DNA of 64,000 bases from Escherichia phage JN01. This document shows positions 11,858 through 11,990 of this stretch, in pieces. The stretch is from the sequence record MN882542; one strand, 5' to 3'. The position numbers and the translations under genes were made by a program. The stretch's first letter is position 1. Every line of letters starts with the position of its first letter. The notes under the pieces were generated by a model. That model was not told the DNA's origin. It searched no databases and saw only the letters and a list, made by a program, of their open reading frames with translations.

Positions 11858-11990
11858 GTAGATAAGTTATTAAGCTTACCTGTGAGTATGCGACCACAAA
11901 GGGTGAAAGGGTAAATTCTAGATTTAAACCCAACAATGCACATCGCTACAGACCTTAAGCAAGTCTGGGTAGCTTATCTACAAAGATAAT
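11858..11990. repeat. long inverted repeat (about 18 bp arms TTATCTTTGTAGATAAG / CTTATCTACAAAGATAA) enclosing about 97 nt
   Basis: Arms at 11858-11875 and 11973-11990; interior holds a CAGACC..GGTCTG hairpin; no ORF. Confidence 0.55.

What the first reader, a model, noticed from the sequence alone, without database searches (positions are those of the whole stretch)
11858..11990. Long inverted repeat with 18 bp arms inside the tRNA array
TTATCTTTGTAGATAAG at 11858-11875 and its reverse complement at 11973-11990 enclose about 97 nt containing another CAGACC/GGTCTG hairpin. It sits between the last R-element and tRNA-Lys with no coding potential. It could form a long RNA hairpin or a DNA cruciform, or mark a recombination or insertion footprint.
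Basis: seen in the sequence. Interest (0 to 1): 0.5.

Follow-up and report, generated by a model that had tools for sequence, protein, structure and literature searches.

The report
Conserved RNA hairpin among phage Y-RNAs
The inverted repeat is real and is the closing stem of a conserved, about 146-nt structured non-coding RNA in a Felix O1-type phage tRNA array; it sits in a cluster of previously unannotated Y-RNA-like genes just downstream of the phage's Ro60-like protein and probably belongs to that RNA-protein system rather than being a DNA cruciform or an insertion scar.

Summary
The window comes from a Felixounavirus (Felix O1-like phage). The inverted repeat exists, but the left arm is at 11850-11866, not 11858-11875. 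The arms are 19 nt perfect and give 22-24 bp with G·U pairs.

Across 19 distinct sequences from three genera, all 33 consensus pairs stay paired. Six pairs show compensatory changes. There are 90 G·U cells and no A·C cells in this alignment, so the structure is an RNA on the tRNA strand.

The element (H, 11847-11992) is non-coding and occurs once in this window. It always lies between a tRNA-like RNA and tRNA-Lys, and it is absent from E. coli genomes.

The ORF at 9294-10709 is a structural homologue of Ro60. One of them (U4) has the YrlA tRNA-mimic architecture. The same box flanks Ro60-like genes in 61 of 72 distant phage loci.

H carries a minimal copy of this box as its inner hairpin (11949-11967), stacked on the long stem. 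Best reading (about 0.5): H is a Y-RNA-like partner of the phage Ro60. Main rival: it is only an RNase III-type processing hairpin. Binding and expression were not tested.

The parts
11848..11871 (+). H, P1 5' arm (closing stem, 24 bp with G·U; 19 nt perfect at 11848-11866)
11968..11991 (+). H, P1 3' arm; it ends 4 nt before tRNA-Lys
11872..11908 (+). H, variable 5' interior (P2 region). The fold differs between type A and type B relatives and is not resolved.
11909..11931 (+). H, P3 hairpin GGGUAAAUUCUAGAUUUAAACCC. The apical AUUCUAGAUU is invariant in both types. In type B the basal stem covaries.
11945..11973 (+). H, P4: minimal 'Ro-box' hairpin. Stem CAGAC/GUCUG at 11949-11953 / 11963-11967, loop CUU-AAGCAA, GG tail. 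A possible lower stem GCUA/UAGC competes with the top of P1. The G-C to A-U change is compensatory in type B.
11712..11849 (+). U4: YrlA-like tRNA-mimic unit. Its parts are the closing bulged stem UUAC-AGA-AGACCGUU / AACGGUCU-G-GUAA, UUA-CAGCAA, V hairpin 11750-11766, T arm 11771-11787, capped acceptor-like stem 11788-11805 and D arm 11808-11822.
11622..11704 (+). U3: small Ro-box unit (GAGC-AGA-AGACCAA AUU CAGCAA ... UUGGUCU-G-GCUC)
11208..11273 (+). U2: small Ro-box unit (UUGC-AGA-AGACCGU AUU CAGCAA ... ACGGUCU-G-GCAA)
11041..11119 (+). U1: small Ro-box unit (UGAC-AGA-AGACCAA UUA CAGCAA ... UUGGUCU-G-GUCA)
9294..10709 (+). Ro60-like protein gene (DUF2828 + DUF7788/vWA; Felix O1 ORF42 'RNA-binding protein'; same family as Bas63 gp130)
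   Evidence: PMC11482910
11996..12071 (+). tRNA-Lys(UUU). RNase P cleavage at its 5' end would set the 3' end of H (inferred).
10728..10848 (+). Two tandem sigma-70-like promoters upstream of the array. They are the likely source of the transcript that carries U1-U4, H and the tRNAs (consensus matches only).
   Evidence: (D16)

Best explanation
H (11847-11992) is a roughly 146-nt structured non-coding RNA. It is transcribed on the + strand as part of the polycistronic tRNA/Y-RNA precursor of a Felix O1-type phage.

Structure. A 22-24 bp stem (P1), formed by its two ends, closes a junction. The junction carries a variable region, a hairpin with an invariant AUUCUAGAUU tip (P3), and a hairpin (P4) stacked directly on the 3' strand of P1.

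The Ro-box. P4 is a minimal copy of a motif I call the 'Ro-box'. It consists of a short stem, NUN-(C/A/U)AGCAA after the 5' strand and a G-ending tail after the 3' strand. The same motif closes the four neighbouring units U1-U4 and flanks Ro60-like (DUF2828) genes in many unrelated phages.

Proposed mechanism (inferred):
- RNase P cleavage at tRNA-Lys, and processing at the U4/H junction, release H.
- P1 protects its ends, or RNase III trims it like a processing stalk.
- P4 recruits the phage Ro60-like protein encoded 1.1 kb upstream.
- P2 and P3 form the variable effector-binding module, as in Y RNAs that tether Ro60 to an exoribonuclease.

Shown: the + strand RNA structure, its conservation, the shared motif, the genomic linkage and the Ro60 fold of the neighbouring protein.

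Inferred: transcription and processing, Ro60 binding, and any effector.
For: 1. RNA structure on the + strand. Across 19 distinct sequences of two deeply diverged types, 33 consensus pairs are paired in all 627 cells. Six pairs have changes on both sides, with 53 such cells against 22 in shuffles. Sliding the partners drops pairing to 25-52%. The non-Watson-Crick pairs in this alignment are 90 G·U cells and no A·C cells. An indel removes one base pair from both arms together.

2. The interior is constrained too. The P3 basal stem covaries in type B; for example, one pair is CG in 5 sequences and UA in 5. P4 changes G-C to A-U.

3. Context. The ORF at 9294-10709 gives an AF2 model with pLDDT 84. 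Its 11 best PDB matches are all Ro60/TROVE, including a phage Ro60 (E 1e-8 to 6e-6, TM 0.52-0.64). The homologue in Bas63 was independently called Ro60-like (PMC11482910).

4. Neighbouring units.
- U1-U4 share CAGAAGACC...NUNCAGCAA...GGUCUGG.
- Their lower stems covary: UGAC/GUCA, UUGC/GCAA, GAGC/GCUC, UUAC/GUAA.
- U4 has the V-T-AS-D arm order of YrlA, with compensatory changes in the capped acceptor-like stem.

5. The box is linked to Ro60-like genes in general.
- In 72 distant loci it gives 134 hits in 61 loci on the gene strand. The opposite strand gives 14 and shuffles give 16.
- 101 of the 134 hits lie within 700 nt of the gene.
- Their tRNA-like units score 37-42 bits on Rfam YrlA, with E 6e-6 to 1e-4.

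6. The minimal box pattern occurs once in the window, inside H, against 0.08 expected.

7. Long outer stems that enclose Ro-box units recur in distant phages. In the first three cases below the box's 3' strand and tail run straight into the outer stem, as in H.
- L042 5535-5619, L048 2715-2798 and L048 3540-3687.
- L043 5648-5748.
Against: - No expression or binding data exist.
- H has no homologue outside Felixounavirus, Mooglevirus and Suspvirus, so the link to Ro60 rests on a short motif.
- The minimal-box pattern was defined after seeing P4. In type A it has only a 5-bp stem, and its first box base is A or U rather than C.
- In H the box is a terminal hairpin, not the closing stem as in U1-U4 and in canonical Y RNAs.
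- The canonical Ro60-binding motifs (GGUCCGA; GNCGAAN0-1G) are absent.
- Bas63 gp130 counteracts the ppl defence when expressed alone from a plasmid (PMC11482910), so at least that activity does not need phage-encoded RNAs.
- A second long hairpin with a similar base (…AAAGAUUUAAU|tRNA) sits just 5' of tRNA-Leu (13529-13618). That fits a general processing role as well.
- One relative (wV8) has a C·A mismatch in P1.
Confidence: 0.5

Rival explanations
1. H is only a cis-acting processing or insulating hairpin of the pre-tRNA transcript. The near-perfect duplex of more than 20 bp would be an RNase III site (a processing stalk) that separates the upstream Y-like RNAs from the tRNA-Lys/Met/Ile block, or a barrier to exonucleases. 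On this reading the interior has no function in trans and no link to Ro60.
For: P1 is a 22-24 bp duplex that ends 4 nt before a tRNA. A second conserved long hairpin (13529-13618, z = -6.3) ends 1 nt before tRNA-Leu. Its 3' base, AAAGAU-UUAAU, resembles that of H. Distant tRNA-array phages also have long hairpins next to tRNAs.
Against: A pure stalk does not explain the covarying interior helices P3 and P4 or the invariant AUUCUAGAUU tip. It also does not explain the exact Ro-box layout of P4. The two readings are not exclusive: P1 may be the stalk that releases a functional interior.
Confidence: 0.25
2. H is a stable phage non-coding RNA with some other function, such as a decoy for a host nuclease or dsRNA-binding factor, or a regulator. 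On this reading, its P4 resembles the Ro-box only because it arose by duplication of a neighbouring unit.
For: Conserved structure. No homologues beyond the clade, whereas U-type units are widespread. The interior evolves fast between types A and B. From my own recollection, not checked here: the phage T4 tRNA cluster also encodes stable RNAs of unknown function (species 1 and 2).
Against: P4 and its junction with P1 are the most conserved part of the interior, and P4 keeps the box features across both types. The element sits inside the Y-like cluster next to the Ro60-like gene.
Confidence: 0.17
3. H is a DNA-level element: a cruciform, a recombination or origin site, or the footprint of a MITE-like or homing-endonuclease insertion.
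For: A 19-nt perfect inverted repeat. HNH endonuclease genes do insert into this tRNA array.
Against: All non-Watson-Crick pairs in the 19-sequence alignment are G·U on the + strand (90 against 0 A·C), which is a strand asymmetry that DNA pairing would not give. H occurs once in this window and once in nearly all phage records (192 places in 189 records). It is absent from 5,426 E. coli genomes. No target-site duplication is present, and no empty site was seen in any relative. The self-palindrome within each arm (TTATCT/AGATAA) is not kept in type B.
Confidence: 0.03
4. The region encodes the 85-aa minus-strand protein that some GenBank records annotate (for example wV8 gp048 and AYO145A_047).
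For: An ORF at 11686-11943 on the - strand exists in the window and in Felix O1-type genomes.
Against: It is read through the reverse complement of a tRNA-like T arm. It is cut to 32-55 aa or lost in the type B relatives, although the RNA structure is kept there.
Confidence: 0.01

Closest known systems
Bacterial and phage Y RNAs / Y-RNA-like RNAs (YrlA and YrlB of Salmonella and Mycobacterium, Yrn1/2 of Deinococcus, Yrl1/2 of Thermus phage phiLo; Chen et al. 2014, PMC4201824; PMC12135203)
   Same: - Encoded within a few kb of a Ro60-type gene on the same strand, and in clusters of several RNAs.
- A stem formed by the two ends.
- A short conserved motif next to a stem or internal loop.
- A variable module.
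- One neighbour (U4) is a tRNA mimic with the V-T-AS-D order that defines YrlA.
   Different: - The partner protein is a divergent Ro60 (Pfam DUF2828/DUF7788, no TROVE hit).
- The motif is NUN-CAGCAA with a YG tail, not GNCGAAN0-1G or CGAA.
- In H the motif sits in a terminal hairpin beside the closing stem, not in it.
- H has no tRNA-like module.
- The RNAs are interleaved with a working tRNA array.
- Neither H nor U4 reaches even E = 10 on Rfam YrlA.
RNase III processing stalks (rRNA operon stems, phage T7 R sites); from my own knowledge, not tested here
   Same: A long, nearly perfect duplex formed by sequences that flank an RNA to be released from a polycistronic precursor, placed directly next to a tRNA.
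   Different: The interior is a conserved 100-nt multi-hairpin RNA of unknown function. No cleavage data exist.
Stable RNAs in the phage T4 tRNA gene cluster (species 1 and 2, rnaC/rnaD); from my own knowledge
   Same: Small structured RNAs of roughly 120-140 nt, co-transcribed and co-processed with phage tRNAs, with function still unknown.
   Different: I do not know of a Ro60-like gene in T4.
Miniature inverted-repeat elements (MITE/REP-like)
   Same: Terminal inverted repeats around about 100 nt of non-coding sequence.
   Different: One copy at a fixed locus, no target duplication, no host copies, and G·U-type covariation that points to RNA.

Membership tests
Y RNA (Ro60-associated ncRNA), applied to H | Encoded close to (within 4 kb of) a Ro60 orthologue and on the same strand | tested here: met
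   H starts 1,138 nt after the stop codon of the Ro60-like ORF 9294-10709, on the same strand. The Ro60 fold of that ORF is supported.
Y RNA (Ro60-associated ncRNA), applied to H | The 5' and 3' ends pair into a long stem that encloses an internal module | tested here: met
   P1 has 22-24 bp, is 100% paired in 19 sequences, and has 4 pairs with compensatory change. The true RNA ends are not known.
Y RNA (Ro60-associated ncRNA), applied to H | Canonical Ro60-binding motif (GGUCCGA bulged helix, or GNCGAAN0-1G / CGAA near the 5' strand of the stem) | tested here: not met
   No GNCGAA in H. The only match in 11030-11995 is at 11768, inside U4's T arm, and it is not conserved (GGAGAA in Felix O1, SUSP1 and Moogle). 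A different, clade-wide box (NUN-[C/A/U]AGCAA) is present in P4.
Y RNA (Ro60-associated ncRNA), applied to H | Physical association with the Ro60 protein | not testable with these tools
   Needs RIP/CLIP or EMSA.
YrlA subfamily (tRNA-mimic Y RNA; Rfam RF02553) | tRNA-like module with V, T, capped acceptor-like (AS) and D arms | tested here: not met
   Not met for H: there is no T or D loop, and there are no ARAGORN or Rfam tRNA/YrlA hits in 11847-11992. The neighbouring U4 does have this architecture, with covariation in AS, but it does not score on RF02553 either. Distant units reach 37-42 bits, below the gathering score of 69.
RNase III processing stalk | About 20 bp or more of nearly uninterrupted dsRNA flanking an RNA in a precursor | tested here: met
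   19 bp perfect, 24 bp with G·U.
RNase III processing stalk | Cleavage by RNase III in vivo or in vitro | not testable with these tools
   No transcript-end data were found.
MITE / insertion footprint | Several dispersed copies, target-site duplication, presence/absence polymorphism | tested here: not met
   One copy in the window. 192 places in 189 phage records. None in E. coli genomes. Every viral contig with this tRNA-Lys has H (27 of 27). The flanks GGT|AAT... and ...ATT|TAA are not a duplication.
Intrinsic terminator | G+C-rich hairpin followed by a U run | tested here: not met
   No terminator-like site in H. The stem is A+U-rich and is followed by UAAUGG.
Any Rfam 15 family | Match to a curated covariance model | tested here: not met
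   No hit overlapping 11847-11992 at E up to 10.

The most novel reading that the evidence does not exclude
H and the four U units are members of a large, undescribed family of phage Y RNAs. Its defining features would be a bulged stem plus a NUN-CAGCAA box, and an association with DUF2828-type Ro60 proteins in dozens of unrelated phages, where the RNAs are often interleaved with tRNA arrays. H would be a rearranged member in which the Ro60-binding box has become a side hairpin on a long processing stem, with a new module (P2/P3) that tethers a host factor. Together with the Ro60-like protein, already shown to counter the ppl defence in Bas63, these RNAs would form a viral ribonucleoprotein that manipulates host RNA decay or anti-phage immunity.
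Probability: 0.35. Interest if true: 0.75.

Novelty: new variant of a known kind. Interest (0 to 1): 0.55.

Why it matters
Felix O1-type phages are widely used for typing and therapy. Their Ro60-like protein was recently shown to neutralise a bacterial defence (ppl) and to be transferable to T7. That paper only guessed that 'some tRNA genes are possibly Y RNAs' (PMC11482910).

This analysis points to the actual candidates: four Ro-box units, one of them a YrlA-type tRNA mimic, plus the H hairpin. None of them is annotated as an RNA in any of the phage records examined.

The shared box also gives a simple signature that finds such RNAs next to Ro60-like genes in most of 72 unrelated phage loci. 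That makes two things directly testable: what phage Ro60 binds, and whether the RNAs modulate its anti-defence or RNA-decay function.

For H itself the result is more modest. It is a real, conserved RNA element whose exact role, Ro60 partner or processing stalk, remains open.

Tried and rejected
- Rfam on the region at E up to 10: nothing for H.
- Covariance model R1 of H searched over the window and 72 distant Ro60-like loci: only H itself.
- Metagenome scan with CAAAGRTNATTTAATGG: the pattern was too unspecific. It returned 120 chance loci and none resembles H by nhmmer.
- A second viral scan anchored on tRNA-Lys found the same contigs plus wV8, with no new lineage.
- E. coli genomes: no copy of H.
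- Sequence search of the upstream protein against PDB: nothing. Pfam gave only DUF2828/DUF7788/vWA. The Ro60 relation appeared only at the fold level.
- GNCGAA motif: one non-conserved match, rejected.
- Permuted tRNA or two-piece tmRNA reading of 11737-11833. I considered this at first because the 3' half precedes the 5' half. I rejected it in favour of the YrlA-type capped acceptor stem, because there is no CCA, no tag ORF and no ARAGORN tmRNA.
- Promoter or terminator inside H: none.
- Coding on either strand: rejected.
- Literature: no paper links Felix O1-type phages to identified Y RNAs, and no transcriptome was found.
- The supplementary tables of Chen et al. 2014, which list their 22 phages, are not held. 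I could not check whether any Ounavirinae were among them.

Full report
**Origin of the window.** The Asp-Lys spacer that holds the finding matches 251 phage records, almost all of them Felix O1-like phages of Escherichia, Salmonella, Shigella and Citrobacter (Ounavirinae), at 96-99% identity. The finding lies in the phage tRNA array: 25 tRNAs on the + strand between 10875 and 16530.

**Observation.** The string TTATCTTTGTAGATAAG is at 11850-11866, not 11858-11875. Its reverse complement is at 11973-11989.
- The perfect arms are 19 nt. The repeat finder gives 22 nt at 95% (11848-11869 / 11970-11991).
- As RNA, the stem reaches 24 bp with G·U pairs.
- No other inverted repeat with an arm of at least 14 nt within 200 nt exists in the window, and shuffles give essentially none.
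- Both strands fold far better than shuffles, as any inverted repeat must.
- The inner hairpin is CAGAC/GUCUG (11949-11953 / 11963-11967).

**RNA, and on which strand.** I collected the element (H, 11847-11992) from GenBank phages and IMG/VR contigs. This gave 19 distinct sequences. They fall into two types.
- Type A is found in most Felixounavirus.
- Type B is found in some Felixounavirus, in Mooglevirus and in Suspvirus.
- The interiors of the two types have diverged strongly, with several indels.

Even so, a common structure of 33 pairs is paired in all 627 cells. Six pairs have changes on both sides, and sliding the partners by 1-3 columns drops pairing to 25-52%. Where type B lacks one base in the left arm, it lacks the partner in the right arm.

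Every non-Watson-Crick pair in the alignment is G·U: 90 cells against no A·C cells. On the opposite strand, or in DNA, these would be mismatches. The selected structure is therefore an RNA with the polarity of the tRNAs. One further genome (wV8) has a single C·A mismatch.

Inside type B a seven-pair helix covaries, with one pair CG in 5 sequences and UA in 5. The tip AUUCUAGAUU of hairpin P3 is invariant in both types. Hairpin P4 changes G-C to A-U.

**What H is not.**
- No ORF is conserved. The 85-aa minus-strand ORF annotated in some records is broken in type B.
- There is no promoter or terminator consensus inside H. Two tandem promoter-like sites lie upstream of the array.
- Type A occurs in 189 phage records, nearly always once, and never in 5,426 E. 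coli genomes.
- All 27 viral contigs with this tRNA-Lys carry H.
- No empty site was found and there is no target duplication.
- Rfam has nothing for it.

**Surroundings.** The whole 457-nt spacer from tRNA-Asp to tRNA-Lys is conserved across the three Ounavirinae genera examined.

Directly upstream of H, 11712-11849 folds into a cloverleaf entered through the 'anticodon' stem. It has a variable hairpin, a T arm (GAAGG-UUCGAUU-CCUUC), an acceptor-like stem capped by a loop, and a D arm (GUGU-AAUGGUA-GCAC). The capped stem shows compensatory changes at three pairs across genera: CUCGGC/GUCGAG, CACGUU/GGCGUG and CCCUUC/GAAGGG. This V-T-AS-D order is the architecture that defines YrlA, the tRNA-mimicking bacterial Y RNA (PMC4201824, sections 5-6).

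This gives four units, U1-U4, with a common closing helix. It consists of a 4-bp lower stem, an AGA/G internal loop and a 7-8-bp upper stem, with NUN-CAGCAA after the 5' strand. The lower stems covary between units: UGAC/GUCA, UUGC/GCAA, GAGC/GCUC and UUAC/GUAA (read).

**The protein next door.** The ORF at 9294-10709 (Felix O1 ORF42, 'RNA-binding protein') hits only DUF2828, DUF7788 and weakly vWA in Pfam. By sequence it hits nothing in the PDB. An AlphaFold model built from 30 homologues (pLDDT 84, pTM 0.85) has Ro60/TROVE structures as its 11 best PDB matches, including Ro60 of Thermus phage phiLo (E 1.5e-8 to 6e-6).

Independently, the PhageMaP study found that Bas63 gp130, of the same family, resembles Ro60 and counteracts the ppl defence. 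It speculated that some annotated tRNAs might be Y RNAs, without identifying any (PMC11482910). Phage Ro60/Y-RNA pairs are known in mycobacteriophages, CcrColossus, Bacillus phage G and phiLo (PMC4201824, PMC12135203).

**The box is a general companion of this protein family.** I fetched 72 distant viral loci that encode homologues at 40-48% identity. Many hold tRNA-like modules with capped acceptor stems next to the gene. These score 37-42 bits on Rfam YrlA, below the gathering score of 69 but with E 6e-6 to 1e-4.

A strict pattern was then tested: a 6-bp stem, NTN, [ACT][AC]GCAA, any insert, the complementary strand, and NG.
- It hits 134 times in 61 loci on the gene strand.
- The opposite strand gives 14 hits and shuffles give 16.
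- 101 of the 134 hits lie within 700 nt of the gene.

So U1-U4 belong to a widespread family of Y-RNA-like units attached to DUF2828-type Ro60 genes. Its box differs from the published GNCGAAN0-1G/CGAA motif. The one GNCGAA in the window's cluster is inside U4's T arm and is not conserved.

**Where H fits.** P4 of H reads:
- type A: (GCUA)C-AGAC CUU AAGCAA GUCU-G G (GUAGC)
- type B: C-AAACC CUU UAGCAA GGUUU-G CG

That is the box with a zero-length insert. Its 3' strand and tail (GUCUGGGUAG) nearly repeat U4's (GGUCUGGUAA). The pattern occurs once in the 64-kb window, here, with 0.08 expected. I defined it after seeing P4, so this number is only indicative.

P4 stacks directly on the 3' strand of P1. 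In distant phages, Ro-box units are likewise enclosed by 14-16-bp outer stems, with the box's 3' strand and tail running straight into the outer stem.
- L042 5535-5619.
- L048 2715-2798.
- L048 3540-3687, whose D arm is identical to U4's.
- L043 5648-5748, a weaker case.

Among long inverted repeats in those loci, the motif lies inside 5 of 46 on the gene strand, of which I read 4 as Ro-box units, and 0 of 26 on the other strand.

H thus looks like a rearranged member of this family. It has a long end-to-end stem, a Ro-box, and a fast-evolving module (P2/P3) placed beside the box rather than inside it.

**Mechanism, and its limits.** I propose that H is released from the array transcript and held closed by P1, and that P4 loads it onto the Ro60-like protein. 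RNase P at tRNA-Lys would set its 3' end, and RNase III could trim P1. P2/P3 would contact an effector, as Y RNAs tether Ro60 to PNPase.

Only the structure, the motif, the linkage and the protein fold are shown. Transcription, processing and binding are inferred.

The strongest rival is a purely cis-acting processing hairpin. A second conserved long hairpin (13529-13618) ends just before tRNA-Leu and has a similar 3' base. The two readings can both be true. DNA-level explanations are disfavoured by the G·U asymmetry and by the lack of dispersed copies, host copies or empty sites.

**Verdict.** It is a conserved + strand RNA element, most likely part of the phage's Ro60/Y-RNA system. I call it a new variant of a known kind. 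For H itself the interest is moderate. The broader by-product is of higher interest: unannotated Y-like RNAs in Felix O1-type tRNA arrays, and a Ro-box signature shared by many phages.

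Noticed in passing
window 11041-11119, 11208-11273, 11622-11704, 11712-11849: Four unannotated Y-RNA-like units (U1-U4) lie between tRNA genes. Each has a covarying lower stem, an AGA/G internal loop, an AGACCNNN/NNNGGUCU upper stem and NUN-CAGCAA. U4 is a YrlA-type tRNA mimic with a capped acceptor stem. Other Felix-type genomes carry a further 69-nt variant between tRNA-Met and tRNA-Asn (for example L001 882-950).
   Followed up: yes
window 9294-10709 (+): The DUF2828/DUF7788 protein annotated as 'RNA-binding protein' or 'hypothetical' is a Ro60 structural homologue (TROVE-like ring plus vWA with a DxSxS motif). The family has more than 2,800 relatives, many in tRNA-rich and jumbo phages (for example Vibrio phage phi-pp2 and Yersinia phage P778).
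   Followed up: yes
loci L042-L113 (distant Ro60-like loci): A 'Ro-box' (stem + NUN-C[A/C]GCAA ... stem + YG) flanks the Ro60-like gene on the same strand in 61 of 72 loci, often in 2-4 tandem units. Some units hold tRNA-like modules that score 37-42 bits on Rfam YrlA, below threshold. One recurrent unit of about 235 nt (GGAUCG GUA CAGCAA ... CGAUCC CG) appears in at least 12 loci and was not examined.
   Followed up: partly
window 13529-13618 (+): A second long hairpin (26-nt arms, 85% complementary, z = -6.3) ends 1 nt before tRNA-Leu. It is conserved in Felixounavirus and, with G·U-type changes, in Moogle. Its 3' base (AAAGAUUUAAU) resembles that of H, and its tip holds a box-like GGUUAUUACAGCUU...GGAACCUUG.
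   Followed up: partly
window 11567-11623 (+): Two adjacent conserved hairpins lie right after tRNA-Asp (GAGAGGGC-UAUUU-GCCUCUC and CCUUAAAGAG...UUCUUUAAAGG). They are invariant across the three genera examined. Their function is unknown, and they are not followed by a U run.
   Followed up: no
window 12597-12675 and 12649-13041 (+): A weak tRNA-like gene (Rfam tRNA 31.7 bits, not called by ARAGORN) is followed by a 115-130-aa HNH-type endonuclease ORF. Several relatives lack this ORF: there ...CGACCAATTT runs straight into AGTTAGCAGATT..., which in the window lies at 13041. It looks like a free-standing homing-endonuclease insertion.
   Followed up: partly
Salmonella phage S19cd (H1) and Escherichia phage GEP101 (H12), region matching window 11540-11790: These two genomes carry an extra stretch of about 410 bp between tRNA-Asp and U4. 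GEP101 annotates a tRNA-His there. The insertion lies outside H.
   Followed up: no
L235 (phage wV8) 7007-7152: wV8 has a T-to-C change in the left arm of P1 that creates a single C·A mismatch. It is the only non-G·U mismatch seen in the stem.
   Followed up: partly
L043 9092-9206 and 5648-5748: An 88-kb tRNA-array phage with a 48%-identical Ro60-like protein also has long hairpins (26-nt and 18-nt arms) next to tRNAs. The one before tRNA-Pro encloses AUU-CAGCAA with a short complementary stem.
   Followed up: partly
window 11945-11973 versus 11866-11871: The top 5-6 bp of P1 and a 4-5-bp lower extension of P4 (GCUA/UAGC in type A; UCUA/UAGG in type B, with a 2-nt bulge) compete for the same 3' nucleotides in both types. 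This could be a conserved alternative pairing or switch.
   Followed up: no
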